Source of the DNA: a virus
Virus record (IMG/VR): IMGVR_UViG_3300045988_180675
Span: 64,001 to 128,000 of that record
Reading direction: 5' to 3' (one strand)
Length of the DNA stretch: 64,000 nucleotides
The first letter of the stretch is position 1. Every line of letters begins with the position of its first letter. The position numbers and the translations under genes were made by a program. Under the pieces are notes generated by a model, which worked only from the letters and a program-made list of their open reading frames with translations, had not been told where the DNA came from and searched no databases. Shown here one piece after another: positions 10,192-55,888 of this stretch.

Positions 10192-10230
10192 CCATGATCA
10201 TCAAATGTGTCAATATTATTATGTTATACC
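10192..10230 (-). promoter_or_regulatory. class-1 promoter/leader box
   Basis: The plus strand reads CCATGATCATCAAAT...ATTATG. In the sense orientation this is CATAAT-N14-TTTGATGATCATGG. Confidence 0.5.
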
Positions 10231-10237
10231 AAATAAA

Positions 10238-10276
10238 AAGAAAAAAAGCCGTGAATAATCACGACTCTTTTTTTTA
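10238..10276. terminator. intrinsic terminator after tandem-OB ssb
   Basis: Stem GCCGTG/CACGAC at 10248-10266 is flanked by an A-run and a T-run. Confidence 0.55.
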
Positions 10277-11098
10277 GAATGGTAAATCATCTGACGTAAT
10301 GTCAAAATTATTTGCGTAATAATCTCCACCTGTAATAGCATTAAACTGAGCTTCACTCATCTGATCTGCAACTGGTTGCTGAACAGGAGTCTGTACCTGT
10401 GGCTGTGGCTGATATGTCTGTGCCATTTGCTGTGGTTGAGCTGTTGGCTGCTGGTACATCTGCTGAGCTACTGGTTGCTGATTTGCTTGGACAGGCTGTT
10501 GCCCCTTCTTTCTAACAATTACTGGAGTAGCAGCAATAACGATACCTAAGTTATTGAATGCTTTGCCGTCTTCTTTAGTTGTCTTGTAAACGGATAAATA
10601 TCCACTCACTGCAATTAAATCACCTACTTGATAGATTGTTCTATCCAAATTTTCGAGTAATTTCTTACTAAAAGAAGCAAACATAAATATCGTCTTTGGG
10701 TTTTCTTTGCTACCATAATTTAAAGCAAATGAAAAACCAGTTGGGAACAATCTTGCAACTGTTCCAACAAAGAATCCTGCCGCTTTATCATCTCCTCCTG
10801 GAACTAATGTGACGCTGTTGGCATTAACCCTGTAATATGTTAAGCCATCTTTACCTTCATCAGATGATAAATAACCTGCTACAGCAACAGGGGTGCCTTT
10901 TTTTGCAAAGCGTTCAAGATCTGACGCAGATCTACCATCAAATACTGAAACATTAAAAAATGATGCATTTCCAGTTTCATTTTGGTCATTTGATTTGTTG
11001 ACAGCCATACTAAAGTGAGCACACTTCTTGCCATCTTTTGTTGTTGATACTTTGATCTCTGAAGCTACGTTTCCTGATACTAAAATACTATTTGACAT
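10274..11098 (-). CDS. ssb: single-stranded DNA-binding protein with two OB folds in one chain
   Basis: There are two OB-like halves (ILVSGNVASE... and FFVGTVARL...), then a Q/P-rich linker and a C-terminal DDLPF tip. The start is moved to ATG 11098, which follows AAGGAGGAAAATAAA. Confidence 0.8.
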   Translation of the reverse strand: MSNSILVSGNVASEIKVSTTKDGKKCAHFSMAVNKSNDQNETGNASFFNVSVFDGRSASDLERFAKKGTPVAVAGYLSSDEGKDGLTYYRVNANSVTLVPGGDDKAAGFFVGTVARLFPTGFSFALNYGSKENPKTIFMFASFSKKLLENLDRTIYQVGDLIAVSGYLSVYKTTKEDGKAFNNLGIVIAATPVIVRKKGQQPVQANQQPVAQQMYQQPTAQPQQMAQTYQPQPQVQTPVQQPVADQMSEAQFNAITGGDYYANNFDITSDDLPF

Positions 11099-11164
11099 TT
11101 TATTTTCCTCCTTTGCCCTCTTTTTGGGACTATCATAACAAATGTCTAATTTATTTGATATTTT

Positions 11165-11200
11165 CCATGTCATCAAATAAATACAATTCAATTATGTAAT
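11165..11200 (-). promoter_or_regulatory. class-1 promoter/leader box
   Basis: The plus strand reads CCATGTCATCAAAT (11165-11178) and ATTATG (11191-11196). Confidence 0.5.
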
Positions 11201-11267
11201 AAAAATAAAATTAAAAAAATGAATTTGTAGCAAATTTGAGTAGATATAGCATAATATATACGAAAGG

Positions 11268-19607: not shown

Positions 19608-20189
19608 TTAATTTTCCTCCTTTGGATCCCAGTTGAAATAGATTGGGTCACTTAAAAGCATTCCGAATTGAACCTTGATACCCTGCTCTGCATAATATTC
19701 AGATAACTTTTTAAAAATGATATCAGAATAAACAGTGATATCCATTGCCTTTTCTCCAAGCTTGATCGTTCCTTCGGAAAAGCCATTTTTTGCTTTTTCT
19801 AACATTTCATTTTTTAAATGGAACTTTGTAAACTCAATAATGTCTGTCAACATCATTTTATGAAATGGTAGGTCCAATCTATCTGTTGGATAGAATTGCT
19901 TAACCACACAGATTACCTGTGTTGAATCAACTGTAACAAAAGTATTGCCTCCACAGGCTTCATTTGTTGTTGATGTTAATGTCTTGATTGCTAGTTCAGT
20001 ATTTTCTAATAAGCAATCGAACTCTTTGTCTAACTTGATAGACATTTTCACCTGCTCTTGACAGTGAGAATAAACGATATATTGTCCATTCTCTAATGCT
20101 TTTTTCACTTGGCTTTTAATAGCCTCCAAATCGTTCATGACTGTTTCCAACTTGTTGTATTCTGCTCTTAATTCATCTATTAATAACAT
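19608..20189 (-). CDS. hypothetical protein, distant paralog of 20305..20916
   Basis: The start is moved to ATG 20189 with an AGGAGGAAAAT SD. The N-terminus LIDELRAE and the C-terminal YAEQGIKVQF...FNW parallel the neighbour. Confidence 0.6.
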   Translation of the reverse strand: MLLIDELRAEYNKLETVMNDLEAIKSQVKKALENGQYIVYSHCQEQVKMSIKLDKEFDCLLENTELAIKTLTSTTNEACGGNTFVTVDSTQVICVVKQFYPTDRLDLPFHKMMLTDIIEFTKFHLKNEMLEKAKNGFSEGTIKLGEKAMDITVYSDIIFKKLSEYYAEQGIKVQFGMLLSDPIYFNWDPKEEN

Positions 20190-20217
20190 AATTTTCCTCC
20201 TTTGGCTCTTTAGCCTT

Positions 20218-20258
20218 ATCCATGTTATCAAATGATACAAAAATATTATGTGATATAG
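20218..20258 (-). promoter_or_regulatory. class-1 promoter/leader box
   Basis: The plus strand reads CCATGTTATCAAAT (20220-20233) and ATTATG (20245-20250). The hairpin GGCTCTTTAGCC lies just downstream in the leader. Confidence 0.5.
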
Positions 20259-20304
20259 GAAGAAATAAAAAAGGACAATATATTTTTGCCCTTTTAAAAT
20301 ATTA

Positions 20305-23752: not shown

Positions 23753-25352
23753 GTGGTAATTGATACATTGCTGCTAATACATTCGAAAGGTCATGGTTGA
23801 ACTTCGTTCTTGTATCAGGTGACATCTTATTATAAGAATCAACGTGATACAGATCCAGCAACATGCTAAAACGTTCTTCGTAGATAGCCTTGAACTCATC
23901 AAACTTTATTGACTTTAATAAAGCTCTATAGTTTCTATTCTGAAGTATCAGATCATCAAAGCCTTTCCCATATTCTTCACGCCACGTAAGAACAAATGGG
24001 TCCAACCCTAATTCTTTTAGAGCTTCTGATAAAGCACTTAATTGTCTGTAAACAGAACTATTTTGTAGTACATCTGCATCAAACATTAAGAATGCTTTAT
24101 TTCGAGAGCCTTTTATAGACTTCAGCATTGGAATAATAGAACTCCAAGAGCTTACTCCAGAAACATAGATTGCAATGTTTCCAGCCTTGGCAATTGCTTC
24201 AGCCTTGAATCGACCTTCTGTAATACAAATGGATGATTTATCCGTCATGGATTTTGGATAAATGATTCCACCTGGAGATCCAGAACTAGCTCCACCATAA
24301 ATACCAGCTTCTCCATTTAAGGAGGCTGATGAAAACCATGTGTAGCGAGGAGCATTATCGCTCTTTTTGTATGCTCTTATCTGGATTCCTACGCATTTTC
24401 CGTTTTCGTCTTTTGCCATGATCCCAATTCCAGCTCTGCCTGTAAATTTTACTCGTCTTGAATTGATATCAAGGTAGAATCCTGGAACTAAAGGCATCTG
24501 TTTTACGATCTTATTTAGAAGCTCATGTTTTTTGAAAGCTTCTTTTTCTTCTCTTGTAAGTTCCTCAAACTTCTTCTTAAAAGATTCATAAGCAAATCTA
24601 TCTCTGATCAGCTTGAACATACGTCTTACAAAAGTGCTACTGTGATCACTTCCCTCTGTTACTGGGAATGTAAAGTAGTTTTTTAGATCTTCTTCACATA
24701 GACCTCTTGTGGTAATCAGATGTTCACGGTCTTTTGGTGAAAGCCCAGATACAAGTGCCATAGCTGAATATACAATGTGGATCACATCGGGATCAGCCTT
24801 TGGAGCCTCGGTTTGGTTGATTGCAACATTTTCCTGAGACTTAACTGCATCGAAGTTTACCTTGATGGCATTTTTATTCTTATATTCTTCTTTGGATATA
24901 TAGCCCATTCGATAACATAAGTGATAAACTGCATCATTAAATTTTGTAATACCGTAAAATCTCATTTCGAAATCAATTGTTGACTTTCCAAAACCATCTG
25001 TAAAGCAATACCACATCGCTTTGCTTGGTGTAATTACAAAAGAACCAGGGACCTGATCGCCATGGAACGGACATAACGCATAAGCATTTTGTCCTTTCTT
25101 TGGTGATACTGCCAAAATAGCTTCTTTTGAAAATGGAACCATTTTCTTATTGTGATCATAAATTGGGGTTAGCCCGAATTTCATCACAGCCGTAGTATAT
25201 GGATCGCTTGAAGTTGAAACTTCATTATAGATCTCATCTGCTGTTGCATCTGGATAATTTTTACTAGCTGTTGCTATTACCCATTGAACAGGGGCTTTTT
25301 TGGCGAGTGTCATTAGTTCGCCAATTTTTCCTTTCTCCCATTTCTTCATCAT
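23742..25352 (-). CDS. DnaG-like primase (degenerate CHC2 finger + Toprim)
   Basis: The finger is CPFHGDQVPGSFVITPSKAMWYCFTDG, and the second Cys pair is not canonical. Toprim is marked by ICITEGRFKAEA and LMFDADVLQN. Confidence 0.7.
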   Translation of the reverse strand: MMKKWEKGKIGELMTLAKKAPVQWVIATASKNYPDATADEIYNEVSTSSDPYTTAVMKFGLTPIYDHNKKMVPFSKEAILAVSPKKGQNAYALCPFHGDQVPGSFVITPSKAMWYCFTDGFGKSTIDFEMRFYGITKFNDAVYHLCYRMGYISKEEYKNKNAIKVNFDAVKSQENVAINQTEAPKADPDVIHIVYSAMALVSGLSPKDREHLITTRGLCEEDLKNYFTFPVTEGSDHSSTFVRRMFKLIRDRFAYESFKKKFEELTREEKEAFKKHELLNKIVKQMPLVPGFYLDINSRRVKFTGRAGIGIMAKDENGKCVGIQIRAYKKSDNAPRYTWFSSASLNGEAGIYGGASSGSPGGIIYPKSMTDKSSICITEGRFKAEAIAKAGNIAIYVSGVSSWSSIIPMLKSIKGSRNKAFLMFDADVLQNSSVYRQLSALSEALKELGLDPFVLTWREEYGKGFDDLILQNRNYRALLKSIKFDEFKAIYEERFSMLLDLYHVDSYNKMSPDTRTKFNHDLSNVLAAMYQLPLKK

Positions 25353-25396
25353 TTTCCTCCTTTTTTTTTATACAAATATATATACTATCATTTGAT

Positions 25397-25438
25397 CTCC
25401 ATGTCATCAAACAATTCACATATATAATGCAATAAAAC
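25397..25438 (-). promoter_or_regulatory. class-1 promoter/leader box
   Basis: The plus strand reads CTCCATGTCATCAAAC...TATATAATGC. Confidence 0.45.
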
Positions 25439-25482
25439 AAGAAATAAAAAAAAGGCTATATTGTTATATAGCTTTTCCTTAT

Positions 25483-26204: not shown

Positions 26205-26520
26205 TTGCCACCTCTTCGATCGGTAAGATCTTATCCTTGTATTTAGCGACATTTACGCCTTTTACGGTCGTAAGCAATCCAAAATCATTAGAGTTCTCGA
26301 TGATTTCAGCATCTTTTTCCGATACTTCGCAGAATGTAAAACCAAAAGTGTCAATAATTTCGATATCTGATGCACCCTCATACTCACATTCTTCATCTTC
26401 TGTGATAATGTTACAAATATGATCAACCATCATATCGATCATCCCTTTTGGATCTGTTCCAGTCATTCCAGCCTTAAAGCCATCCATTTGTAGATCATAC
26501 ACTGCAAAAAACTTTTTCAT
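26188..26520 (-). CDS. hypothetical acidic protein
   Basis: AGGAGGAAAATTAT SD. The sequence is D/E-rich. Confidence 0.55.
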   Translation of the reverse strand: MKKFFAVYDLQMDGFKAGMTGTDPKGMIDMMVDHICNIITEDEECEYEGASDIEIIDTFGFTFCEVSEKDAEIIENSNDFGLLTTVKGVNVAKYKDKILPIEEVANAYQL

Positions 26521-26546
26521 ATAATTTTCCTCCTATGTCTGTTTTC

Positions 26547-26587
26547 TCCATGTTATCAGACTATTTATACATATATTTTGTAATATG
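26547..26587 (-). promoter_or_regulatory. class-1 promoter/leader box (variant)
   Basis: The plus strand reads CTCCATGTTATCAGAC...ATTTTGTAATATG. Confidence 0.4.
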
Positions 26588-26596
26588 AACAGAAAA

Positions 26597-26625
26597 TAAA
26601 AAAGAGGACTTATTAATCCTCTTTT
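26597..26625 (-). terminator. intrinsic terminator after ssb
   Basis: Stem AGAGGA/TCCTCT with a minus-strand T-run. Confidence 0.55.
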
Positions 26626-29169: not shown

Positions 29170-29328
29170 TTACCATTCTGCATTTTTGATCAAGAGCTTT
29201 TCACGTCTACGTGAATACTCCTTTTTGCTATGAAACACAGCGGAACGAGTCGTTCTGACTCTTGGTCTTGTGTGTTTGATAGCATCAAGCATCATTTGTT
29301 TTGATGCTTCAACATATTTTCTTTTCAT
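29170..29328 (-). CDS. small basic protein (52 aa), below ORF-track cutoff
   Basis: GGAGGAAAATTAT SD, then ATG 29328: MKRKYVEASKQMMLDAIKHTRPRVRTTRSAVFHSKKEYSRRREKLLIKNAEW. A class-1 box lies upstream. Confidence 0.45.
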   Translation of the reverse strand: MKRKYVEASKQMMLDAIKHTRPRVRTTRSAVFHSKKEYSRRREKLLIKNAEW

Positions 29329-29354
29329 ATAATTTTCCTCCTTTGGCTTTCTTG

Positions 29355-29398
29355 CCCCATGTCATCATACTAAAGAACACTATTATTGTGCTATAAAG
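29355..29398 (-). promoter_or_regulatory. class-1 promoter/leader box (variant)
   Basis: The plus strand reads CCCCATGTCATCATAC...TATTATTGTGCTATAAAG. Confidence 0.4.
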
Positions 29399-29441
29399 AT
29401 GGCAAAAAGAAAAGCTGCTATATAAGCAGCTGATCTTTTCT

Positions 29442-30731: not shown

Positions 30732-30780
30732 TTTTTCATTTTCCTCCTGACATATAATTTTCTTCCTTTATCTAATCATG

Positions 30781-30830
30781 CTCCATGTAATCAAATAAGG
30801 ACATTGTTATTATGCAAGAAAGAAGAGAAA
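30781..30830 (-). promoter_or_regulatory. class-1 promoter/leader box
   Basis: The plus strand reads CTCCATGTAATCAAAT...TTATTATGCAAG. Confidence 0.45.
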
Positions 30831-30891
30831 GAAAAAAGGCAAATCGATACATCTGCCTCTAGTCTGTTTTTGGTCTAGCTTTGGTCTGAAT

Positions 30892-32820: not shown

Positions 32821-32928
32821 AAAATTTAATTTTTCCTCCTATGTCCTCTCTTTTAGGACTCGCTATACTAGCGTCTAATTGTCTTCCTTATTTTTTGAGT
32901 AATGCTTTTTATCATCACCCTTTCTTTC

Positions 32929-32972
32929 TCCATTTCTCATCAAATAATTGGACATAAGTATTATGCAAGAAG
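32929..32972 (-). promoter_or_regulatory. class-1 promoter/leader box
   Basis: The plus strand reads CTCCATTTCTCATCAAAT...TATTATGCAAG. Confidence 0.45.
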
Positions 32973-32981
32973 AAAAGAAAT

Positions 32982-33010
32982 AAAAAAAGACGGAATAACC
33001 GTCTTTCTTT
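32982..33010 (-). terminator. intrinsic terminator after helicase gene
   Basis: Stem GACGG/CCGTC (32989-33003) with a flanking A-run and T-run. Confidence 0.6.
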
Positions 33011-34969: not shown

Positions 34970-34998
34970 TTTTTATTTTCCTCCTTAGCCTTAATGGC

Positions 34999-37404: not shown

Positions 37405-37482
37405 TTTATTTTCCTCCTTAATTTACGATATTTTATATATAAAATTTATTCGATGTTTTTTATTTTCCTCTTTTTTAATATT

Positions 37483-37525
37483 CTCCATGCTCATCAAATA
37501 AATACATATATATCTTGCTATAAAA
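37483..37525 (-). promoter_or_regulatory. class-1 promoter/leader box for PARP-nuclease-helicase operon
   Basis: The plus strand reads CTCCATGCTCATCAAAT...TATCTTGCTATAAAA. Confidence 0.45.
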
Positions 37526-37570
37526 AAGACAATAAAAAAAAGAAGGAAATTACTCCTTCTTCTTTTTTTA

Positions 37571-37768: not shown

Positions 37769-38227
37769 TTACTCAACGTTGTACTGTGCGATAGCATAGT
37801 ATGTCTTTCCTTCATCAAGAGTTCTGATGAGATCTGGCAACGATAATGCTTCGTTCTCAAATAGGAATAAATCTCTTGATTCATCCATTGTGAATCTAAA
37901 TTTTCTGCGTAAATCCATGTATTCGATCAGATTTTTACTAGAAAATTCTTCTAGGGAAACCTTTTTCATTTCCTCTAAAACGTTTAAGAATTCTTCATAG
38001 TTTTTCTTAAAATAAAGATTCTTATCATTCACAACAAATCCACCATCTTCTGTGCCAGAAATGCCATCTGATTTGATAAGGTTTTCAACAAAAAACTTCT
38101 TATCATCGTTATCATCCAATTCAGAATAAGCATCGTGGAACGGTAGGAAATTATCAACAGATTCTGCTGACATTACCTCTTCATCTTTCTGTGATGAAAT
38201 TAAAACTACTGAAAAAAATATTGACAT
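37769..38227 (-). CDS. hypothetical acidic protein
   Basis: The start is moved to ATG 38227, which follows AAAGGAGGAAAATAAG. Confidence 0.55.
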   Translation of the reverse strand: MSIFFSVVLISSQKDEEVMSAESVDNFLPFHDAYSELDDNDDKKFFVENLIKSDGISGTEDGGFVVNDKNLYFKKNYEEFLNVLEEMKKVSLEEFSSKNLIEYMDLRRKFRFTMDESRDLFLFENEALSLPDLIRTLDEGKTYYAIAQYNVE

Positions 38228-38257
38228 CTTATTTTCCTCCTTTGCTCTTTTGAGCTT

Positions 38258-38298
38258 CTCCATGATATCAAATAAATACATATATATTATGTTTGAAA
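38258..38298 (-). promoter_or_regulatory. class-1 promoter/leader box
   Basis: The plus strand reads CTCCATGATATCAAAT...ATTATG. Confidence 0.45.
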
Positions 38299-38336
38299 CA
38301 TAAAAAGAAAAAAGGGAGAATACCCCCCTTTTTCTT

Positions 38337-38489
38337 TTATCCTCTTTTTTCGGACATTGCAATGCTACATATAACAACTAATACAAAGAAAACCGCAGGT
38401 TTCATCTTTGTAGTTGCTAATATAACATTTACCAAGATAAAGGCAATAATTAGGCATATAGCCAAAATTATCAATCTATCTCTTCTCAT
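38337..38489 (-). CDS. small membrane peptide (50 aa), below ORF-track cutoff
   Basis: GGAGGTGG SD, then ATG 38489: MRRDRLIILAICLIIAFILVNVILATTKMKPAVFFVLVVICSIAMSEKRG. Confidence 0.4.
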   Translation of the reverse strand: MRRDRLIILAICLIIAFILVNVILATTKMKPAVFFVLVVICSIAMSEKRG

Positions 38490-38528: not shown

Positions 38529-38702
38529 TTAAACTTCCATCACAAAATATTTTGATGCAACATAAGCTGCGAAAACCAACACTACTACAAAACATAAGAA
38601 TATTGTAGTGTTTTCACCGATTGCGACAAAAGCAACCGCTCCAAGCAATACAAATACTGCTGCCAAGATAAAATTGTAAGCATACTTTAATAAATTTAAC
38701 AT
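38529..38702 (-). CDS. small two-TM membrane protein, paralog of 37571..37756
   Basis: The start is moved to ATG 38702, which has an AGGAGGGAAAT SD. Confidence 0.6.
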   Translation of the reverse strand: MLNLLKYAYNFILAAVFVLLGAVAFVAIGENTTIFLCFVVVLVFAAYVASKYFVMEV

Positions 38703-38733
38703 TTTAATTTCCCTCCTAGCCATTTCGGCTTTT

Positions 38734-38775
38734 CCAATAATCATCAAATAATTACACTTAAATTATGTCATAAGG
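38734..38775 (-). promoter_or_regulatory. class-1 promoter/leader box (variant)
   Basis: The plus strand reads CCAATAATCATCAAAT...AATTATGTCATAAGG. Confidence 0.4.
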
Positions 38776-38825
38776 AAAGAATAAAAAAAAGAAGGATTAT
38801 CCTTCTTTTCCGTTTTACACTCCTG

Positions 38826-39623: not shown

Positions 39624-39953
39624 TTAAATATCGTAAGATGTAGAGTTGTACGAACAACCTTCTGAATCTGTGAAAACGTCTTTAGTAACTGTAGCGTGCT
39701 TGTCGAAGAATTCTACTTCTTTAGCGTAGATTTCCTTAACTTTTTCTTCTCCTAATGTTTTTGCATATTCTTTAGCATAGTTTTTGTAACCATTAAAGAA
39801 GTCTGTTCCATAGACCAAACAAGAATGTATCATGGAAATACATCTTATTTCCTCTAATTCTAATTCCTCTTCTGCTGTTAATTTGCGTTCATTAGTGAAA
39901 CTGATTTGAAGTAGTTCACGCTCTCTCTGTTCTAATCGTTCCATTCTTTTCAT
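39624..39953 (-). CDS. hypothetical helical protein, tandem paralog of 39203..39607
   Basis: Same pattern as 39203..39607. TAGGAGGAAATAAT SD. Confidence 0.6.
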   Translation of the reverse strand: MKRMERLEQRERELLQISFTNERKLTAEEELELEEIRCISMIHSCLVYGTDFFNGYKNYAKEYAKTLGEEKVKEIYAKEVEFFDKHATVTKDVFTDSEGCSYNSTSYDI

Positions 39954-40007
39954 ATTATTTCCTCCTAGCCTTACTGGCTTTTATTTTTCGCCTTATTCGA
40001 ATATTTT

Positions 40008-40050
40008 CTCCATGATCATCAAATAAAGTCACATTTATTATGTGATATAG
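40008..40050 (-). promoter_or_regulatory. class-1 promoter/leader box
   Basis: The plus strand reads CTCCATGATCATCAAAT...TTATTATGTGATATAG. Confidence 0.5.
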
Positions 40051-40087
40051 AAAGAAAGAAAAAAGAGGCTTATTGCCTCTTCTTTTT

Positions 40088-40444
40088 TTAATACAAATCT
40101 TCAAATTCTGCTCCTAAATCAAGCCCATCCTCTTCAAATACTGTCAAAACAGAATTATCTGAGGCTAGTATTTCATGAATATTTTCTTTACCTTTATCTG
40201 ATAGCGTATCTAGTGATTGTCTACATTTATGATATTTCTTGTTCTGACCACTAACTGTAATTGTTGCGTTATCAATAATAATAACGTTCTGTTCTTCATC
40301 AAATGACGATGGTGTATTAAAGTGATTAAATTCATCTTTAGAAAATTCTAAAAAGATATCCGTCTTAATTTCATGTGCTGTCAGCTTCAAGAGTTTAAAC
40401 TTTTTACATCTTGGTTTCTTTGTTAATTTTAATATAATCTTCAT
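40088..40444 (-). CDS. hypothetical protein
   Basis: ACAGGAGC SD. The ~135-nt leader contains the LE-like element copy. Confidence 0.55.
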   Translation of the reverse strand: MKIILKLTKKPRCKKFKLLKLTAHEIKTDIFLEFSKDEFNHFNTPSSFDEEQNVIIIDNATITVSGQNKKYHKCRQSLDTLSDKGKENIHEILASDNSVLTVFEEDGLDLGAEFEDLY

Positions 40445-40487
40445 ATTTTTGTTTGCTCCTGTTTATCTTTGTTATTCTTATTTTTTT

Positions 40488-40578
40488 GTTTCCGTGAACT
40501 ACTTAATAATAAATATATCTGTTTAATTCTCTCCTTTCATTGTATTTAGCCTGCACGATTTGTGTGGCTATCTTCGTA
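40488..40578 (+). repeat. solo copy of the IS-relic left-end-like sequence (MITE/PATE-like)
   Basis: CCGTGAACTACTTAATAATAAAT (40492-) and hairpin TAGCCTGCAC..GTGTGGCTA (40547-40570) align with 31200-31285. Confidence 0.4.
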
Positions 40579-40582
40579 TTCT

Positions 40583-40620
40583 CAAGAATCATCAAATAAG
40601 AACTGTAAATATCTTGTTAG
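40583..40620 (-). promoter_or_regulatory. class-1 promoter/leader box (variant)
   Basis: The plus strand reads CAAGAATCATCAAAT...ATATCTTGTTAG. Confidence 0.35.
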
Positions 40621-40665
40621 AAAATAAGAAAGAAAAAAAGAGGTTTAAAAAACCTCTCTCTTTTT

Positions 40666-41370
40666 TTACTTCAGTCCTAGTTCTGTCAAAATCTCTTCTG
40701 GAATAGGGCGGTAAGTCCATCCATGACCATACTTGTAACCACAAACTGGGCATTCCTTTCCAAGTAATCCGAATTCACTTTCTGATAAAGAAGTGTGTCC
40801 TCGTAAGGTTGCTTCTACTTCACGAAGCTTATATCCTTCTGGGATATTTTCCTTTGCTTCATCCGCATTTAAGAAGAATTTCTTGATAGAATACTTCATA
40901 GTATACAGATCTTGTTGATCTTGAGAAAGTGTTACTGTTCCATTTTGAACCAGTTCCTTCTTAATGAAGTCTTCCACTTTTCTCTGCTTTACGATGGTGT
41001 CATGTGTCATCGTATATTCAGCCTTATAAAGTGGTTGACTTGCAAGCTCACGAATACCAGCTTCTTCCTGGTGGATGCATTCTGCATGCATATCGTTTAA
41101 ATGATATTCCTTCCAAATATCTAAAATTCTCTTTAGATCATCAGAAGCTGCTTCATAATCGATATCCATATCGACCTGTCCAAAAGCAATTGGATCCTTT
41201 CTGTAGCCATTTACATACTTATATGTATCGTACAATGCACCAGAAATCGAAAGAACAAGTTCTCCCTTATTGTTGTCTCTAGTTTCAATCTCCAGAACAA
41301 CTTTTACAGTTTTGCCAAAACAGGTTTTAACATCGTAGAACTTCTTTGTTGTTTTGTTTAGTGTTTTCAT
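40666..41370 (-). CDS. hypothetical protein with C-terminal CPVCGYKYGHGW element
   Basis: TAGGAGGAAAATCAAAT SD. Confidence 0.6.
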   Translation of the reverse strand: MKTLNKTTKKFYDVKTCFGKTVKVVLEIETRDNNKGELVLSISGALYDTYKYVNGYRKDPIAFGQVDMDIDYEAASDDLKRILDIWKEYHLNDMHAECIHQEEAGIRELASQPLYKAEYTMTHDTIVKQRKVEDFIKKELVQNGTVTLSQDQQDLYTMKYSIKKFFLNADEAKENIPEGYKLREVEATLRGHTSLSESEFGLLGKECPVCGYKYGHGWTYRPIPEEILTELGLK

Positions 41371-41402
41371 ATTTGATTTTCCTCCTATTGGCTTTTAGCC
41401 TT

Positions 41403-41443
41403 CTCCATGTTATCAAATAATACAAAAATATTATGTAATATAA
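41403..41443 (-). promoter_or_regulatory. class-1 promoter/leader box
   Basis: The plus strand reads CTCCATGTTATCAAAT...ATTATGTAATATAAG. The leader hairpin GGCTTTTAGCC lies downstream. Confidence 0.5.
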
Positions 41444-41477
41444 GAAAGAATAAAAAAAGACAGGATAATTCCCGTCT

Positions 41478-41741
41478 TTATTTTTTAACAATCTTCTCAA
41501 TGAAATCAGCTTCCATAATTTCTTCGTCTGTATTTAGATCGCAAACAGTAAATACCTGTCCATTGTCAATGGCAGTGGCAAATAGCTCTTTGTGTTTCTT
41601 TACAAAGTCATGAATTTCATACAAATGAGAAAATGACATCGCATCTTCCTTATCTTGTACGAATAATACGCTTGGCTGATTCTCTTTTCCTGATCTAGCA
41701 CTAAGAACTGTGTTAGATGATGATTTAATATAATTTGTCAT
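41478..41741 (-). CDS. hypothetical small protein
   Basis: The start is moved to ATG 41741. Confidence 0.5.
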   Translation of the reverse strand: MTNYIKSSSNTVLSARSGKENQPSVLFVQDKEDAMSFSHLYEIHDFVKKHKELFATAIDNGQVFTVCDLNTDEEIMEADFIEKIVKK

Positions 41742-43966: not shown

Positions 43967-44224
43967 CTATCCCTCCAAGATATCCTGTAAGAAATAGTAA
44001 TCAAGAACATCAAGCGTTACTAGCTTACTAGCAGCCTTTGTCTTGATTAAAAGATGATCGTTTTCTCTCACCCAAGTATCGAAGCGATCTGCTTCCTTTT
44101 TGATGTACAAATGGACATCGTTTTCGTGGTTGAAGATTAAGGCTTCTTCCACATTTTTTGTAAATGAGTGATCCTTGGTTAAAAAACCTCGGTCTTCTGG
44201 CAGTGTAACAACAAATTTAATCAT
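43967..44224 (-). CDS. hypothetical small protein
   Basis: The start is moved to ATG 44224, which follows AAGGAGGAAAATTAAA. Confidence 0.5.
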   Translation of the reverse strand: MIKFVVTLPEDRGFLTKDHSFTKNVEEALIFNHENDVHLYIKKEADRFDTWVRENDHLLIKTKAASKLVTLDVLDYYFLQDILEG

Positions 44225-44277
44225 TTTAATTTTCCTCCTTATGTTGTTTTTATATGTCACCTTTAATTTATTAGATT

Positions 44278-44322
44278 CTCCATAATCATCAAATTAAAGT
44301 ACAATTATATTCTGCTATAAAA
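44278..44322 (-). promoter_or_regulatory. class-1 promoter/leader box
   Basis: The plus strand reads CTCCATAATCATCAAAT...TATATTCTGCTATAAA. Confidence 0.45.
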
Positions 44323-44344
44323 AAGTAATAAAAAAACGATGTTC

Positions 44345-44794
44345 TTATGTAGCATCGCTTTCTTGTTTTGTTCTGTAGAAGTTTGAAACAATATCATCTT
44401 CCATTTTTAATAGATTTTGTATTACTTGATACGCTTTAGTGTATAAACACGGATAGTGAAATTCAAGATTATCACTTCTAACACATGTGTAATACCTATC
44501 TTGATAATATATTCTGTAACTATATTTTTTTAGTATCAATCTTATGAACGGAAGCTTCTCTGGATCCTCATACAAAAGTCCCAAGGTATTTATACACTCT
44601 AAAATTGTTAGCTTCTCTAGCTCTTTTTCTATATCGTTATCTAATGGCTTGAATCCTATGATCGCCAACACAAAACTACAGTCATCTGATAATCTGATCC
44701 GTCTTGATACGCTTCTTATGTTTCTTAGCTTGCTTGCTTCGTTATAAAAACCATTACTCTTGATAAAGCTAGTTACGTTTTTGAATCTTTTCAT
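44345..44794 (-). CDS. hypothetical protein
   Basis: It overlaps the 3' end of the upstream gene, which suggests translational coupling. Confidence 0.5.
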   Translation of the reverse strand: MKRFKNVTSFIKSNGFYNEASKLRNIRSVSRRIRLSDDCSFVLAIIGFKPLDNDIEKELEKLTILECINTLGLLYEDPEKLPFIRLILKKYSYRIYYQDRYYTCVRSDNLEFHYPCLYTKAYQVIQNLLKMEDDIVSNFYRTKQESDAT

Positions 44795-53640: not shown

Positions 53641-53663
53641 GGTTTTTCCTTTCTACCATATCC

Positions 53664-53683
53664 ATTATATCACATAACAGTAT
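53664..53683 (-). promoter_or_regulatory. class-2 promoter (ATACTGTTAT + TGATATAAT)
   Basis: The reverse complement reads ATACTGTTATGTGATATAAT. Confidence 0.55.
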
Positions 53684-53732
53684 ATATTAAAAGAAAAGAA
53701 AATAAAAAAAGAGGGTTTATCCCTCTTCTTTT

Positions 53733-55811
53733 TTAAAGATCGTCTGATCCAAAGATATCTCCAATTTCATCAATTGCCAACCCTGATGCTTCAGCTACAG
53801 CTTGCACTGTTTCAGAAACTTCTGGCTGCACATCGAATGATTCTGGAAGTGGATCACTAACAATAGTTAGCTCACTAGCCAATGGTTCTTGAGCTACAGG
53901 AACATTACTTGTCAAGTCTTCCGTATTCTTTTCTTTCTTCTTTGCAGTTGACTTTCTCTTCTTCTTTTCCAAAGCAAGAGCAGCTAAACGATTAAGTTCT
54001 GTAATACTGATTCCTTCTTCATTTAGAAGCTCAACAATATCACTATGATTAACGCATGCGATCATGCACATATCAAACTCGTTTTCGTTTGATTTGATCA
54101 ACTTAATAAGCTTTTCGAAGATTTCCTTATCAAGAACGCTTAACTCATCCATAATCAAGATGTTATATCCTGAAAGCTGACTTAGCATGCTCAATAACAC
54201 AAAGGTTACACAAGCTTTTTCACCACCAGATAATGAGTCAAAAGAAATGTATTGGTTTGTGCCATCTACATCAACCATTACCTTGATACCATTTTCAAAT
54301 ACGAATTTAATATCCATATTTGGGAAAATCGTGCGAGCTTTTTCATTACATGGTGCAGAGAATTCCTGAACATAGAATGAAATAATTGCTTCCTTTACCT
54401 TACCCTTTGGAGCAAATGCAATGCAGAGTGATTCATAAGTCATAAGCTTATTGTTATAAGATGTCAACTTACTTTCGAGTTCTGCCTTCTGTGCCAGAAT
54501 ATTCCAAGTGTTAATCATTGCATTTAATTCTGCAATCTTGGTATTGATCTGGTTGAGATCAACATTGATTGGGGCTGGTTCTGGAGGCATCCCAGGTGTA
54601 TTAGCTGATAATCTATTGATATTATCGGTTAATATTCTCAATTGGTTTTCCAGTGCCTTATCGTTATTGATCTTGTTCAAGATGCCTTCTGTTTCTGTTA
54701 CCTTTGCTTCAGCCATTTTTAATGAAGCTTCTAACTTCATATAGTTCTGACGTAAAACATTGCGTTCTGCTTCCATTTCAGAAAGAATCGGAGTCTTGTC
54801 AGTATGACAAACCAACTTCTTTGATAATGGACAGATCGGTTGAGAAACATTCTTGATCGCTTCTGTGATCATGACTCCATTCTGTTTTGTGATTGCCAAC
54901 TGTTGTGATGTTTGAGAGAGCATCTGCTTTGCTGTAGCCAATTCTCTATTTACAGCTGCAACTTCCTCTTCTGTATGTGGTGTCAATACGCCATACTGGT
55001 TTCGGAAATTTTGCATTGCAAGTTTTGCATCTGCCAACATCTTTTGATGATTTTCTACAGTTTGCTTTGAACGCATGTAGGCGTTTAATTTTGCATTATA
55101 TTCAATAACGCTCTTCTTTGCCTGTTCCAATTGTTCAAGTTCAGCAGGAATTCTATCGGCTGTTACAGCTGGAACTGTTAATTCTCCAAAGCCCTTTAAA
55201 ATCCCCTGCGTCTCTTTAAGCTTCTGCTTGATCATCTTTCTTCTGTCTACAAGTGTATCGTATACAGAATTAAGCATCTCAATACCAAATTCTCCATCTG
55301 GTAACACGGAAGAAAGAACTTCTTTTTCTTCTTCTGTTGCTTCTGAAAACTTAGAAAGAACAATGTTCTTATCTAACTGTTCTGGCAAGTATTTTAATAA
55401 TACTTCACCAAATTGTTGGGACGTTAATCCGTTAAACACTTCGCTACTTGTAGCGATCTTTCCAGTTTCAATATTGATCCCTGGAAATGAGGTTTCTAAC
55501 ATCTGATTGATTGCTGTTAATGAAGCTGCTTTTCCATCTAAATAATAGATAGATTGTCTCTTATCTGCATAACAACGACGACCAAATGTTCTACCATCTT
55601 CTAAGGTCACTGTCACTTCAGCATGATCTTCGCCTGCATGAACAATATCACCAGCAGGTTCAACCCCAGTTAAACCATAAATTAATGCGTTGCGAACGGA
55701 AGTCTTTCCTGAACCGTTTGCTTGACAAAATGCTGTGATTTTGCCTAGATCAAAGGAGTGTGTTCCTTTTAATCCTTGGAAGTTTGTTACTAATAAATTT
55801 TTGATTTTCAT
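53733..55811 (-). CDS. Rad50/SbcC-like SMC-type ATPase
   Basis: Walker A is NGSGKTS. A long coiled coil has a central CPLSKKLVC (residues ~327-335 of 692). Signature LSGGEK and Walker B ILIMDEL are present. Confidence 0.8.
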   Translation of the reverse strand: MKIKNLLVTNFQGLKGTHSFDLGKITAFCQANGSGKTSVRNALIYGLTGVEPAGDIVHAGEDHAEVTVTLEDGRTFGRRCYADKRQSIYYLDGKAASLTAINQMLETSFPGINIETGKIATSSEVFNGLTSQQFGEVLLKYLPEQLDKNIVLSKFSEATEEEKEVLSSVLPDGEFGIEMLNSVYDTLVDRRKMIKQKLKETQGILKGFGELTVPAVTADRIPAELEQLEQAKKSVIEYNAKLNAYMRSKQTVENHQKMLADAKLAMQNFRNQYGVLTPHTEEEVAAVNRELATAKQMLSQTSQQLAITKQNGVMITEAIKNVSQPICPLSKKLVCHTDKTPILSEMEAERNVLRQNYMKLEASLKMAEAKVTETEGILNKINNDKALENQLRILTDNINRLSANTPGMPPEPAPINVDLNQINTKIAELNAMINTWNILAQKAELESKLTSYNNKLMTYESLCIAFAPKGKVKEAIISFYVQEFSAPCNEKARTIFPNMDIKFVFENGIKVMVDVDGTNQYISFDSLSGGEKACVTFVLLSMLSQLSGYNILIMDELSVLDKEIFEKLIKLIKSNENEFDMCMIACVNHSDIVELLNEEGISITELNRLAALALEKKKRKSTAKKKEKNTEDLTSNVPVAQEPLASELTIVSDPLPESFDVQPEVSETVQAVAEASGLAIDEIGDIFGSDDL

Positions 55812-55844
55812 ATAATTTTCCTCCTGTTGTGGCTTTTAGCCTTA

Positions 55845-55888
55845 TCCATGATCATCAAATATGATACAAAAATATTATGTGATATAAG
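55845..55888 (-). promoter_or_regulatory. class-1 promoter/leader box
   Basis: The plus strand reads TCCATGATCATCAAAT...ATTATGTGATATAAGG. The leader hairpin GGCTTTTAGCC is at 55831-55841. Confidence 0.5.

What the first reader, a model, noticed from the sequence alone, without database searches (positions are those of the whole stretch)
10192..55888. Sixteen copies of a conserved promoter/leader module (CATAAT -10, TTTGATGAnCATGGAG box, GGCT-loop-AGCC hairpin, AGGAGGAAAAT SD)
On the sense (minus) strand the pattern is (T)AnCATAAT, then 13-15 nt, then TTTGAT(G/A)AnCATGGAG. It recurs upstream of 16 transcription units. Plus-strand coordinates are 10192, 11165, 20218, 25397, 26547, 29355, 30781, 32929, 37483, 38258, 38734, 40008, 40583, 41403, 44278 and 55845.

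The box would sit at about +7 to +25 of the transcripts, so it is not a -35 element.

In at least seven leaders a short hairpin follows, just before a uniform SD. Examples are AAGGCTAAAAGCC at 55831, 41389 and 20204, and variants near 39967, 34987 and 38719.

The set covers recJ, the tandem-OB ssb, primase, the PARP cassette, the SbcC-like gene and most orphan genes. This looks like a dedicated regulon: an operator or RNA element read by an element-encoded factor, or a specialised promoter class.
Basis: seen in the sequence. Interest (0 to 1): 0.65.

Follow-up and report, generated by a model that had tools for sequence, protein, structure and literature searches.

The report
Repeated terminator-promoter-leader cassette on giant plasmid
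A giant plasmid-like element of gut or mouth bacteria places the same compact "stop, start, stabilise, translate" DNA cassette in front of at least 16 gene groups, probably so that its own sigma factor can switch on its DNA-replication, repair and orphan genes together.

Summary
All 16 copies sit where stated, all on the minus strand, all intergenic, and far above chance.

Each copy is a fused cassette with this order:
- an intrinsic, often bidirectional, terminator whose T-run sits rigidly at -34..-29
- no -35 hexamer
- a non-canonical -10, TAT-n-R-CATAAT-A, with C at -12 in every copy
- N5, then TG, with the start inferred at the G
- 5-8 nt, then TTTGATGA(0-2 nt)CATGGAGAA
- usually a small hairpin 1-4 nt before a perfect AGGAGGAAAAT Shine-Dalgarno sequence

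New here: in two thirds of the 90 distinct leaders found in relatives, the spacer plus TTTGATGA pairs with a downstream arm. This gives a 10-15 bp stem-loop that starts at +1..+4 and shows CAUGGAGAA in its loop. So the "box" is at least partly an RNA element.

The host element looks like a conjugative giant plasmid with an Inocle-like gene set. Relatives encode an orphan sigma-70-family protein just beyond the window, behind a host-type promoter.

Best reading: a specialised promoter class, probably read by that sigma, fused to an mRNA-stabilising, high-translation leader. The cassettes also mark recombination breakpoints. This is a new variant of known kinds (T4 PeSL cassettes, pLS20/p576 establishment regulons).

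The parts
55809..55923 (-). Module 1, upstream of the SbcC-like gene. T-run 55901-55896; -10 CATAAT 55879-55874; inferred +1 55867; box 55859-55844; hairpin GGCT/AGCC; SD AGGAGGAAAAT; ATG 55811. Short leader.
   Evidence: Pfam SMC_N/AAA_23, PHROG SbcC-like
44222..44358 (-). Module 2, upstream of a run of nine small orphan genes. -10 CAGAAT 44314-44309; +1 44302; box 44293-44278; ATG 44224. Long leader with a 5'-terminal stem-loop.
   Evidence: fold z -2.62; orphans have no Pfam hit
41368..41480 (-). Module 3. Terminator 41479-41456; -10 41435-41430; +1 41423; box 41417-41403; hairpin GGCT/AGCC; ATG 41370. Short leader.
40442..40663 (-). Module 4. Terminator 40663-40633; -10 CAAGAT 40616-40611; +1 about 40604; degenerate box 40596-40581 (TCTGGAG in relatives); 160-nt leader; ATG 40444.
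39951..40085 (-). Module 5. Terminator 40085-40059; -10 40042-40037; +1 40030; consensus box 40023-40008; 5'-terminal stem-loop; hairpin GCC-AGTAA-GGC; ATG 39953.
   Evidence: (z -2.13)
38700..38811 (-). Module 6. Terminator 38811-38785; -10 38767-38762; +1 38755; box 38748-38733 (shifted TATTGGA); hairpin GCC-GAAAT-GGC; ATG 38702.
38225..38338 (-). Module 7. Terminator 38338-38303; -10 38291-38286; +1 38279; box 38272-38258; hairpin GCTC/GAGC; ATG 38227.
37402..37567 (-). Module 8, upstream of the PARP-domain gene, a PD-(D/E)XK gene and UvrD. Terminator 37567-37534; -10 CAAGAT 37517-37512; +1 37505; box 37498-37483; long-range 5' stem; ATG 37404.
   Evidence: (z -2.70)
32928..33010 (-). Module 9, promoter and box only; the downstream start codon is uncertain. 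T-run 32988-32982; -10 32965-32960; +1 32953; box 32944-32928 with a 2-nt internal gap.
30729..30859 (-). Module 10. -10 30814-30809; +1 30802; box 30795-30781; 5'-terminal stem-loop; ATG 30731 (429-aa orphan).
   Evidence: (z -2.81)
29326..29435 (-). Module 11, upstream of a small ORF, a kinase, an NS-type endonuclease and SSB. -10 CACAAT about 29390-29385; +1 about 29378; degenerate box 29369-29355; hairpin GGC/GCC; ATG 29328.
26518..26625 (-). Module 12. -10 CAAAAT 26580-26575; box TCTGATAACATGGAG 26560-26546; ATG 26520.
25350..25475 (-). Module 13, upstream of the CHC2/DUF3854 primase, SecA and a 203-aa gene. -10 CATTAT 25429-25424; +1 25417; box 25411-25397; 5' stem-loop; ATG 25352.
   Evidence: (z -2.08)
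20187..20294 (-). Module 14. -10 20250-20245; +1 20238; box 20232-20218; hairpin GGCT/AGCC; ATG 20189.
11096..11241 (-). Module 15, upstream of the tandem-OB SSB. -10 11196-11191; +1 11184; box 11177-11163; 5' stem-loop; hairpin CCC/GGG; ATG 11098.
   Evidence: (z -2.59)
10165..10269 (-). Module 16, upstream of RecJ. -10 10223-10218; +1 10211; box 10205-10190; ATG 10167.
34970..34998 (-). Stand-alone hairpin (GCC-ATTAA-GGC) plus AGGAGGAAAAT SD in front of UvrD, inside an operon, with no promoter or box. It shows that the hairpin-SD unit is a separable sub-element.

Best explanation
Each copy is a composite intergenic expression cassette of a giant conjugative plasmid-like element.

1. An intrinsic terminator ends the upstream unit. 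This is shown at the consensus level only.
2. Fused to it is a promoter with no -35 and a non-canonical -10, RCATAATA. C at -12 is never replaced by the T that host-type promoters of the same element carry. Transcription is inferred to start at the G of a conserved TG, 7 nt downstream.
3. The promoter is most likely read by RNA polymerase carrying the element's own divergent sigma-70-family protein. That protein is encoded just upstream of the window behind a host-type promoter. This step is inferred from position and co-conservation; it is not shown.
4. The 'box' is the 5' end of the mRNA. In long leaders +1..+16, including UUUGAUGA, pairs with a downstream arm to give a 5'-terminal stem-loop that displays CAUGGAGAA. 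In short leaders the box is followed directly by a small hairpin.
5. With an always-unpaired, perfect Shine-Dalgarno sequence, this leader most likely protects the 5' end from 5'-dependent decay and maximises translation. This is by analogy with aprE, ermC and STAB-SD leaders of Firmicutes.
6. Why the box sequence itself is conserved is not explained by pairing alone. Some factor or polymerase step probably reads UGAU...UGGAnAA.

The result is a co-regulated set of at least 17 transcription units: replication, recombination and repair genes plus many orphans. The cassettes also serve as recombination junctions for gene shuffling.
For: **Copies and geometry.**
- 16 of 16 copies are on the sense strand and intergenic, far above chance.
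- 114 distinct copies occur in relatives that are 83-96% identical.
- The geometry T-run / -10 / TG is rigid, whereas TG-to-box varies by 5-8 nt and box-to-SD by 2-70 nt.

**Promoter and terminator.**
- Terminator-like sites number 19 against 4.0+-2.0 expected, and they coincide with the modules. No sigma-70 -35/-10 match falls at any module.
- Host-type promoters of the same element read TGnTATAAT.

**The sigma-like protein.**
- Pfam Sigma70_r2 matches at E=3.6e-4.
- All 50 top Foldseek hits of the predicted model are sigma factors, with probability up to 1.0.
- Its gene lies directly upstream of a module-driven DnaE gene.
- A relative whose sigma is only 48% identical keeps the -10 invariants and the box.

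**The 5' stem-loop.**
- It is present in 60 of 60 long leaders and starts at +1..+4 in 59 of 60. 14% of its pairs are G.U.
- z-scores run from -2.1 to -4.3 in 9 of 9 tested leaders.
- 5' arms pair better with their own leader than with leaders of other spacer classes in 109 of 132 comparisons, p=0.003.

**The rest of the leader.**
- The SD-proximal hairpin is in 55 of 70 leaders against 8.2 in shuffles, with at least 16 stem types.
- The SD is unpaired in 99% of leaders.
- A 5' block plus a strong SD stabilise mRNA in Bacilli (PMC3997798).

**Recombination.** 11 of 36 homology breakpoints lie within 90 nt of a module.
Against: - There is no experimental start site, half-life or sigma-specificity data.
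- CATAAT is a 5/6 match to the host -10, so host sigma-A may suffice.
- The sigma gene is not in the window. It is known only from relatives that are 94% identical. Its model is of modest confidence (pLDDT 64), and the Pfam hit is below the curated cut-off.
- One third of leaders (30 of 90) lack the 5' stem yet keep the box, so pairing does not explain the conservation of the box.
- Column-wise covariation on a MAFFT alignment was inconclusive: 74.4% paired against 73.3% in shuffles.
- The stems are A/U-rich and weak (-6.5 to -11 kcal/mol).
- The conservation figures for the -10 and the box in relatives are inflated, because relatives were fetched with a pattern that contains them.
Confidence: 0.55

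Rival explanations
1. These are ordinary host sigma-A promoters: strong early or constitutive promoters without a -35, helped by the upstream T-tract. The element's sigma-like protein has nothing to do with them. The rest of the cassette (terminator, stabilising leader, SD) works as in the best explanation.
For: - CATAAT matches TATAAT at 5 of 6 positions, including A-11 and T-7.
- The TG sits at a typical -1/+1 distance.
- Nothing links the sigma to the modules except its position and co-conservation.
Against: - C at -12 is invariant in 16 of 16 window copies and 114 of 114 family copies.
- There is never a TG extension and never a -35.
- The same element's other promoter class carries TGnTATAAT with T at -12. 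Two clearly different designs coexist on one element.
Confidence: 0.3
2. The box is a DNA operator just downstream of the start site for an element-encoded repressor. The repressor shuts the regulon off after entry into a new cell. This would be zygotic induction, as with Reg of p576, the Kor proteins of IncP plasmids, or Aca repressors of anti-CRISPR operons.
For: - The box is tied to the promoter and not to the SD.
- It contains a short palindromic core, ATGA(n)TCAT.
- p576 establishment promoters carry operators downstream of the start, and they precede variable, mostly orphan genes together with establishment genes such as ardC (PMC8708921).
- The gene set here (two SSBs, a primase, nucleases, orphans) looks like an establishment set.
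Against: - The spacing between the half-sites varies by 0-2 bp, and the distance to the start by 4 nt. A rigid dimer would tolerate this poorly.
- One half-site is often degenerate.
- No HTH or RHH protein was found among about 60 window proteins.
- The Reg operator motif is absent.
- The downstream complementary arm uses G.U pairs, which means selection acts on RNA.
Confidence: 0.2
3. The box is a binding site on the mRNA for a translational regulator of the CsrA type. One GGA is shown in a hairpin loop (AUGGA) and a second GGA overlaps the SD, so that one dimer could bridge both and block ribosome binding.
For: - UGGA is the most invariant part of the box.
- It sits in the loop of the 5' stem-loop in long leaders.
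- The distance to the SD, 12-70 nt, is within the range known for CsrA (my own knowledge).
Against: - No CsrA, Hfq or NusG homologue was found in the window or in the family loci held (tblastn; Pfam).
- Streptococci, the suspected hosts, are not known to have CsrA (my own knowledge).
- The conserved UUUGAU half is left unexplained.
Confidence: 0.12
4. The modules are mainly mobile recombination cassettes, like T4 PeSLs. Their uniformity comes from gene conversion between copies, and the box has no function of its own.
For: - Homology breakpoints between strains are enriched at modules: 11 of 36, against 4.5% expected window-wide and about 14.5% in the densest region.
- Sequence upstream of the terminators diverges sharply between strains (0.248).
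- Long leaders look like products of recombination between units.
Against: - Conservation is position-specific. The T-run, the -10 and the box diverge by 0.02-0.05, while -28..-18 diverges by 0.26 within the same 100 nt. Homogenisation alone would not give this pattern.
- This reading is compatible with the best explanation; it does not exclude it.
Confidence: 0.1
5. The leader is an antitermination site: a lambda nut-like boxA plus boxB hairpin, or an ops/RfaH-like site. Polymerase that starts at one module would then read through the terminators of the following modules.
For: - The layout is a linear conserved box followed by a small hairpin.
- Every unit ends in a terminator.
Against: - There is no similarity to the boxA consensus.
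- The hairpin loops are not conserved (AAA, AGUAA, AUA and others).
- The hairpin is tied to the SD, not to the box, and also occurs alone.
- No NusG paralogue was found.
- If terminators were overridden, a promoter in front of every unit would be unnecessary.
Confidence: 0.04
6. The modules are single-stranded-DNA promoters (Frpo-like) that work on the incoming transferred strand during conjugation.
For: The genes all point one way, and the set resembles a leading region: SSBs, a primase and orphans.
Against: Folding either strand as DNA gives only the terminator, the small hairpin and a weak 5' stem. No long hairpin rebuilds a -35/-10 duplex. The modules are short and AT-rich.
Confidence: 0.03

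Closest known systems
PeSL (promoter-early stem-loop) composite terminator/promoter motifs of T4-like phages (Arbiol 2010, PMC2839356; Comeau 2014, PMC4122927)
   Same: A small terminator stem-loop is fused to a promoter and repeated many times between small, mostly orphan genes. Indel and replacement junctions between close relatives fall at the motifs.
   Different: - The host element is plasmid-like, not a T4-like phage.
- The promoter is not a host sigma-70 early promoter: it has no -35 and has C at -12.
- The cassette extends about 50-160 nt into the transcript, with a conserved box, a 5' stem-loop, a hairpin and a uniform SD.
Establishment-gene regulatory sequences EGeRS2 (p576) and EGeRS1 (pLS20) of Bacillus conjugative plasmids (Val-Calvo 2021, PMC8708921)
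   Same: A conserved regulatory sequence is repeated upstream of several clustered, variable operons of a Gram-positive conjugative plasmid, most of whose genes have no known function. EGeRS2 contains a promoter, an element just downstream of the start in some copies, and short inverted repeats thought to stabilise the RNA.
   Different: - EGeRS2 has a strong sigma-A promoter with a -35 and TTATCCCnnTTATCCC operators for an RHH repressor. None of these is present here.
- EGeRS1 is 400-600 bp, GC-rich and has no detectable promoter.
- There are 4-5 copies per plasmid there, against 16 or more here.
-10-only promoters read by dedicated, divergent sigma factors (T4 gp55 late promoters TATAAATA; streptococcal ComX cin-box TACGAATA with an upstream T-tract). 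From my own knowledge.
   Same: An extended 8-9 bp -10-like element with no -35, a T-rich tract upstream, and a dedicated sigma encoded apart from the housekeeping one.
   Different: The motif is different. The sigma here is 368 aa with sigma2-sigma4-like architecture, and it has no detectable sequence relatives outside its own small family. Dependence on it is untested.
5' mRNA stabilisers of Firmicutes (aprE 5' stem-loop plus RBS, ermC, cryIIIA STAB-SD; review PMC3997798)
   Same: A stem-loop at the very 5' end and/or an SD-like sequence near the 5' end, together with a strong SD.
   Different: Those are single-gene leaders with unrelated sequences. Here a single conserved sequence is reused genome-wide, and a third of the copies lack the stem.

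Membership tests
Canonical sigma-70/sigma-A promoter | -35 hexamer TTGACA-like, 16-18 bp upstream of the -10 | tested here: not met
   The consensus scan finds no -35/-10 pair at any module in 36-46 kb. The -35 position is occupied by the terminator T-run.
Canonical sigma-70/sigma-A promoter | -10 hexamer TATAAT with T at -12, or a TG extension when the -35 is missing | tested here: not met
   The hexamer matches 5 of 6, but C at -12 is invariant and there is never a TG at -15/-14. The TGnTATAAT promoters of the same element are a separate class.
Intrinsic (Rho-independent) terminator | G+C-containing hairpin followed directly by a T-run | tested here: met
   19 sites against 4.0+-2.0 in shuffles, coinciding with the modules. 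Several are flanked by an A-tract and also score on the other strand. Function was not tested.
PeSL cassettes of T4-like phages | Terminator stem-loop fused to a promoter, repeated between small ORFs | tested here: met
PeSL cassettes of T4-like phages | Junctions of indels and replacements between close relatives lie at the motifs | tested here: met
   11 of 36 breakpoints lie within 90 nt of a module. Sampling around modules inflates this figure; against the densest region the excess is about 3-fold.
PeSL cassettes of T4-like phages | T4-like phage genome with host sigma-70 early promoter consensus | tested here: not met
   The element carries VirB4/TraG-type ATPase, topoisomerase III, LPXTG adhesins and an actin-like partition protein. 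The promoter is non-canonical.
EGeRS2 / Reg regulon (p576) | Dual heptamer operator TTATCCCnnTTATCCC flanking a strong sigma-A promoter, plus an RHH repressor gene | tested here: not met
   The operator pattern gives 4 matches at 3 mismatches against 5.2 expected, none of them at a comparable position. No RHH or HTH hit appears among the window proteins.
EGeRS1 (pLS20) | 400-600 bp GC-rich, highly structured region without a promoter | tested here: not met
   The modules are 105-220 bp and AT-rich, and they contain a -10-like element.
Frpo-type single-stranded-DNA promoter | Long imperfect hairpin in ssDNA that rebuilds a -35/-10 duplex | tested here: not met
   DNA folds of both strands of two modules show only the terminator, the small hairpin and a weak stem.
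Lambda-type nut site | boxA consensus plus a boxB hairpin with a conserved loop, and an N-like or NusG-like partner | tested here: not met
   The loops vary. The hairpin tracks the SD and not the box. No NusG paralogue is in the sequence held.
5'-terminal mRNA stabiliser (aprE/ermC/STAB-SD type) | Stem-loop within a few nt of the 5' end and/or an SD-like sequence near the 5' end, plus a strong RBS | tested here: met
   This holds by prediction for 60 of 90 distinct leaders. The SD is perfect and unpaired. It rests on the inferred start site.
5'-terminal mRNA stabiliser (aprE/ermC/STAB-SD type) | Measured increase in mRNA half-life | not testable with these tools
   This needs a rifampicin chase or an RNase J/Y mutant.
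CsrA-regulated leader | GGA in a hairpin loop plus GGA at the SD | tested here: met
   (sequence level only)
CsrA-regulated leader | A CsrA-family protein available in the system | tested here: not met
   tblastn with E. coli and B. subtilis CsrA finds nothing in the window or in the family loci. The rest of the element and the host are unknown.
Any curated RNA family (Rfam 15) | Match at the gathering score | tested here: not met
   There are 0 matches in the window. Only sub-threshold chance hits fall on the terminators.
Sigma-70 family (for the neighbouring 368-aa protein) | sigma2/sigma4 fold and a region 2 signature | tested here: inconclusive
   - Pfam Sigma70_r2 scores E=3.6e-4, 20.7 bits, below the 24-bit cut-off.
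- The AF2 model has pLDDT 64.
- All top 50 Foldseek PDB hits are sigma factors, but with low TM (0.16-0.22 on the query, 0.13-0.29 on the target).
- There is no PDB sequence hit.
Inocle giant extrachromosomal elements of oral Streptococcus (PMC12340149) | Shared gene repertoire (RecD-like, Pol III alpha, RecJ, sortase A, LPXTG proteins, signal peptidase, sigma factor, VirB4/VirD4), about 32% GC, 245-370 kb | tested here: inconclusive
   The repertoire matches, and GC is 35%. No Inocle sequence was available for comparison, and the contigs held are 160-206 kb.

The most novel reading that the evidence does not exclude
The element runs a self-contained, orthogonal expression system. An orphan sigma factor, itself under a host-type promoter, recognises a -10-only promoter whose C at -12 keeps host sigma-A off. 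Every transcript it makes carries the same 5' tag (UUUGAUGA..UGGAGAA, displayed on a terminal stem-loop). A dedicated factor, still unidentified, reads that tag to set the stability or translation of the whole regulon at once. Giant plasmids of this kind would then control their replication, repair and anti-defence genes independently of the host, much as large phages do.
Probability: 0.25. Interest if true: 0.7.

Novelty: new variant of a known kind. Interest (0 to 1): 0.5.

Why it matters
[quoted passage not shown] About 95% of their genes have no known function, and nothing has been reported on how they are expressed.

This cassette gives a first regulatory map. It marks transcription-unit boundaries and defines a regulon of at least 17 units. 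It also separates two promoter classes and names a candidate dedicated sigma factor.

It offers a compact, portable terminator-promoter-leader part for Gram-positive engineering. It also suggests how orphan genes are swapped in and out, by recombination at the cassettes.

The parts are individually familiar, so the finding is useful more than it is surprising.

Tried and rejected
**Searches for relatives.**
- Megablast of 10-24 kb against the phage and plasmid collections found no relatives.
- The pattern scan of GTDB representative genomes gave only single chance hits, so no host was identified.
- A looser scan for the box alone in IMG/VR gave only chance hits apart from the known relative.

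**Structure tests.**
- RNAalifold on a MAFFT alignment of short leaders predicted nothing, because the hairpin arms were out of register.
- The column-wise covariation count for the 5' stem was inconclusive. I replaced it with a cognate versus non-cognate arm test.
- Pairing of the box with the start-codon region in short leaders is no better than for control genes (p=0.29).

**Readings rejected after inspection.**
- CATAAT as a -35 with TTTGAT as a -10. The spacing ranges over 12-15, and the TG is locked to CATAAT and not to the box.
- FNR, cre, LexA, DnaA or sigma-54 sites.
- A leader peptide or upstream ORF. There is no SD and the reading frames are inconsistent.
- A K-turn or C/D-box reading of UGAUGA. 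There is no partner strand.
- A ComX cin-box. It is only loosely similar.

**Factor searches.**
- CsrA, NusG and Hfq homologues: none found.
- Rfam: none.
- tRNAs: none.

Full report
**1.

A strict search for the box (CTCCATGNTYATCAAA, at most 1 mismatch) gives 5 sites against 0.00 expected. All are on the minus strand, at 24-38 bits. The next best minus-strand hit scores 12 bits, the plus strand gives one 19-bit hit, and shuffles give 0-2 hits at 12 bits or more. All 16 lie in intergenic gaps and point the same way as the downstream genes.

- RecJ, two SSBs, a CHC2/DUF3854 primase, a PARP-domain protein and an SbcC-like protein.
- Also two RecD2-like helicases, a RecG-like helicase, UvrD, SecA and a Pol III alpha fragment.
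- About 30 small proteins have no family hit.

**2. Anatomy of the module**

Aligned on the -10-like block, the module reads as follows:
- an A-tract, a hairpin and a T-run, whose last T is at -29+-1 in 104 of 114 copies
- a variable pyrimidine-rich stretch
- TAT or TCT
- n-R-C-A-T-A-A-T-A, with C-12, A-11, A-8 and T-7 invariant
- 5 nt, then T-G (T in 108 and G in 102 of 114 copies)
- 5-8 variable nt
- TTTGATGA, a gap of 0-2 nt, then CATGGAG and AA

A consensus scan of 36-46 kb finds 19 terminator-like sites against 4.0+-2.0 expected. The best of them are the hairpins at the head of the modules, and several score on both strands. The same scan finds no sigma-70-type -35/-10 pair at any module. 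So each module begins with the terminator of the preceding unit, and the T-run of that terminator occupies the place of a -35.

The fixed CATAAT-N5-TG spacing is what a -10 and a -1/+1 pyrimidine-purine pair would give. The start at G is inferred, not measured.

**3. Relatives**

Nothing similar is in the phage or plasmid collections or among GTDB representative genomes, where only single chance hits appear.

One 178-kb IMG/VR contig and many metagenome contigs of 160-206 kb carry the module repeatedly. They are 83-96% identical to the window where they overlap.

From them I collected 114 distinct module copies. Relatives were fetched with a pattern containing CATAAT and the box, so conservation of those two parts among relatives is partly built in.

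Among orthologous copies, divergence per site is:

| Segment | Divergence |
|---|---|
| T-run (not in the fetch pattern) | 0.024 |
| -10 | 0.024 |
| Box | 0.047 |
| SD | 0.078 |
| Coding sequence | 0.089 |
| -28..-18 | 0.258 |

Constraint is therefore position-specific.

**4. What the element is**

Loci of the relatives outside the window encode:
- a VirB4/TraG-type ATPase
- topoisomerase III
- a 1534-aa protein with an NlpC/P60-like end (judged by eye)
- several LPXTG surface proteins
- HipA-like, TnpB and IscB-like proteins

The window itself adds an actin-like partition protein, a sortase with a pilin, a signal peptidase and a VirB11-like ATPase.

This is a conjugative plasmid-like element, even though IMG/VR files it as viral. 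Its repertoire and its 35% GC match the 'Inocle' elements of oral Streptococcus: RecD-like, Pol III alpha, RecJ, sortase A, LPXTG proteins, signal peptidase, a sigma factor and VirB4/VirD4 (PMC12340149). That paper does not mention promoters. I could not compare sequences, so this remains a lead.

**5. A candidate reader of the promoter**

In relatives 94% identical to the window, a 368-aa gene lies about 2.5 kb beyond the window's right end and on the same strand as the modules.
- It scores weakly on Sigma70_r2: E=3.6e-4, below the curated cut-off.
- It has only two clusters of homologues among 5.8 billion proteins, and no PDB sequence match.
- An AlphaFold model built from a two-sequence alignment (pLDDT 64; the N-terminal half 70-95) finds only sigma factors among its top 50 Foldseek hits. 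E-values go down to 8e-5 and probability up to 1.0, with low global TM, as expected for an extended multi-domain protein.

The gene and a small upstream ORF sit behind a host-type promoter (TTTACA-17-TATACT, overlapping the second motif described in section 9), not behind a module.

Directly downstream come a terminator, a TGTTATAAT promoter, a module and the DnaE-like gene whose 3' part is in the window. A relative whose sigma is only 48% identical keeps the invariant -10 positions (AGCATGAT) and the same box in front of DnaE.

These facts make the sigma a good candidate reader of the modules, but nothing here tests that.

**6. The box is the 5' end of the mRNA and part of an RNA structure**

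I folded every distinct leader from the inferred +1.
- In 60 of 90 ('long' leaders, at least 28 nt between box and SD), the variable spacer plus UUUGAUGA pairs with a segment a few nt after CAUGGAGAA. This gives a 10-15 bp stem.
- The stem starts at +1, +2, +3 or +4 in 16, 24, 13 and 6 cases, that is 59 of 60.
- 107 of 781 pairs are G.U. Such pairs work only in the sense RNA.

Nine representative stem-loops fold better than their dinucleotide shuffles, with z from -2.1 to -4.3 and at most 8 of 200 shuffles as stable.

Different spacer classes carry matching partners, for example ACUUUA/UAAGGU, UAUUUA/UAAAUU, UUCUAA/UUAGAA, UCCUUA/UAAAGGA and AAUUG/CAAAU. A column count on a MAFFT alignment was inconclusive, because most columns hardly vary and some classes are out of register. 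In a cognate versus non-cognate test, each 5' arm pairs better with its own leader than with leaders of other classes in 109 of 132 comparisons. The Wilcoxon test over 12 classes gives p=0.003.

That the stems begin at the inferred +1 supports that start site independently.

The other 30 leaders ('short') have no 3' arm. Pairing of the box with the start-codon region is no better than for control genes (p=0.29). The sequence of the box is therefore conserved for some reason beyond pairing.

**7. The rest of the leader**

A 3-5 bp hairpin ends 1-4 nt before the SD in 55 of 70 distinct leaders. Shuffles give 8.2 (maximum 16), and other genes of the window give 6 of 44. At least 16 stem types occur, including swapped arms (AGCC/GGCT against GGCT/AGCC; also GCTC/GAGC, AGTC/GACT and GCCC/GGGC), and the loops vary.

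The same hairpin-SD unit occurs alone in front of UvrD, inside an operon.

The SD, AGGAGGAAAAT, is predicted unpaired in 99% of leaders. No Rfam family matches.

**8. How it most likely works**

In Bacilli, a blocked 5' end and/or a strong SD near it are the common features of leaders that stabilise whole mRNAs (review PMC3997798). The module has both.

I therefore read it as a unit that ends the upstream transcript and starts a new one from a specialised promoter. It also gives the mRNA a protected 5' end and an exposed, perfect ribosome-binding site.

What reads UGAU...UGGAnAA is unknown. These observations favour recognition of single-stranded RNA, or of the initially transcribed region:
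- the spacing between the two halves varies (0-2 nt)
- the distance from +1 varies
- G.U pairs occur in the partner arm
- the GGA sits in a loop

A rigid double-stranded operator fits them less well. No CsrA, Hfq or NusG homologue is in the sequence held, and no DNA-binding regulator was seen in the window.

The Reg operator of p576 and a Frpo-like ssDNA hairpin are absent.

**9. A second promoter class**

The intergenic gaps without a module carry another repeated unit: a terminator, a T-run, ATATACTGTTAT(R) and TGnTATAAT.

The 13-mer has 15 matches against 3.2+-1.7 expected. This class precedes both RecD2 genes, the RecG-like gene, an SSB-like gene, two divergent pairs, and (in relatives) the sigma operon and DnaE.

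It shows what host-type promoters look like on this element, and it makes the C at -12 of the modules stand out.

**10. Cassettes as recombination junctions**

Of 36 distinct ends of homology between the window and its relatives, 11 lie within 90 nt of a module. The expectation is 4.5% window-wide and about 14.5% in the densest region. Sequence just upstream of the terminators diverges by 0.248. Sampling around modules inflates the excess, but the pattern is that of T4 PeSL cassettes (PMC2839356, PMC4122927).

**11. Comparison and verdict**

The closest known things are:
- PeSL cassettes, which share the architecture and the shuffling role
- the repeated establishment-gene regulatory sequences of pLS20-family plasmids (PMC8708921), which share the plasmid context and a variable, mostly orphan gene set
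- -10-only promoters of dedicated sigma factors
- 5' stabilisers of Firmicutes

The module fails defining features of each as a family (see the membership table). It combines them in a new way, on a class of elements whose regulation has not been described.

It is a real and useful regulatory element, and moderately interesting. The key mechanistic steps (start site, sigma dependence, role of the box) remain inferences.

Noticed in passing
window 46140-46161, 48862-48883, 51123-51135, 53664-53685, 61177-61196, 62273-62285, 4741-4749, 280-288/510-522 (minus-strand promoters); 15382-15437 and 7816-7908 (divergent pairs); L159:1624-1650; L174:1347-1375: A second repeated promoter cassette: a terminator, a T-run, ATATACTGTTAT(R), then an extended -10 TGnTATAAT. 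The 13-mer has 15 matches against 3.2 expected. It fills exactly the intergenic gaps that lack the finding's module. It may be a host sigma-A promoter with an operator for an unknown regulator.
   Followed up: partly
L159:300-1619 (about 2.5-3.7 kb beyond window position 64000, minus-strand sense); also L083, L174, L175: An orphan 368-aa sigma-70-like protein is preceded by a co-transcribed ORF of about 70-79 aa (possibly a co-factor or anti-sigma). Only two homologue clusters exist among 5.8 billion proteins.
   Followed up: partly
window 34970-34998 (-): The hairpin (GCC-ATTAA-GGC) plus AGGAGGAAAAT unit occurs without a promoter or box in front of UvrD. The translation-initiation part of the cassette is therefore a separable element.
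   Followed up: partly
whole window; loci L004, L062, L134, L145, L161: IMG/VR lists the 178-kb relative as viral, but the gene content is conjugative-plasmid-like (VirB4/TraG ATPase, topoisomerase III, LPXTG adhesins, actin-like partition protein). It matches the published Inocle repertoire. No capsid or terminase gene was seen in the parts examined.
   Followed up: partly
window 20938-23427 (SecA), 59396-59908 (signal peptidase S26), 13930-14796 (sortase), 12057-13859 (LPXTG pilin): The element carries its own secretion and surface-anchoring set: SecA, a signal peptidase, a sortase and a pilin-like LPXTG protein.
   Followed up: no
L141:424-1737, L004, L107, L071, L083 (TnpB-like); L070:570-1892, L156 (RRXRR+HNH, IscB-like): Relatives carry several TnpB-like and IscB-like genes at places where the window has none. 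These are insertions that differ between strains.
   Followed up: no
window 16148-17578 (+): A PIN-PhoH (PhoH2-type) protein. From memory, mycobacterial PhoH2 cleaves RNA at AC[A/U][A/U][G/C], and the gap-0 boxes contain ACAUG. This is a loose coincidence; the gap-1 boxes read UCAUG.
   Followed up: no
window 1-3045: About 3 kb with few convincing ORFs, next to a weak Mob_Pre-like gene (3045-3920) and a VirB11-like ATPase (4822-6627). It could hold an origin of transfer or of replication.
   Followed up: no
window 26755-26861 and 29617-29672: Imperfect 24-27-nt tandem repeats inside coding sequence (the SSB gene and a 429-aa orphan gene).
   Followed up: no
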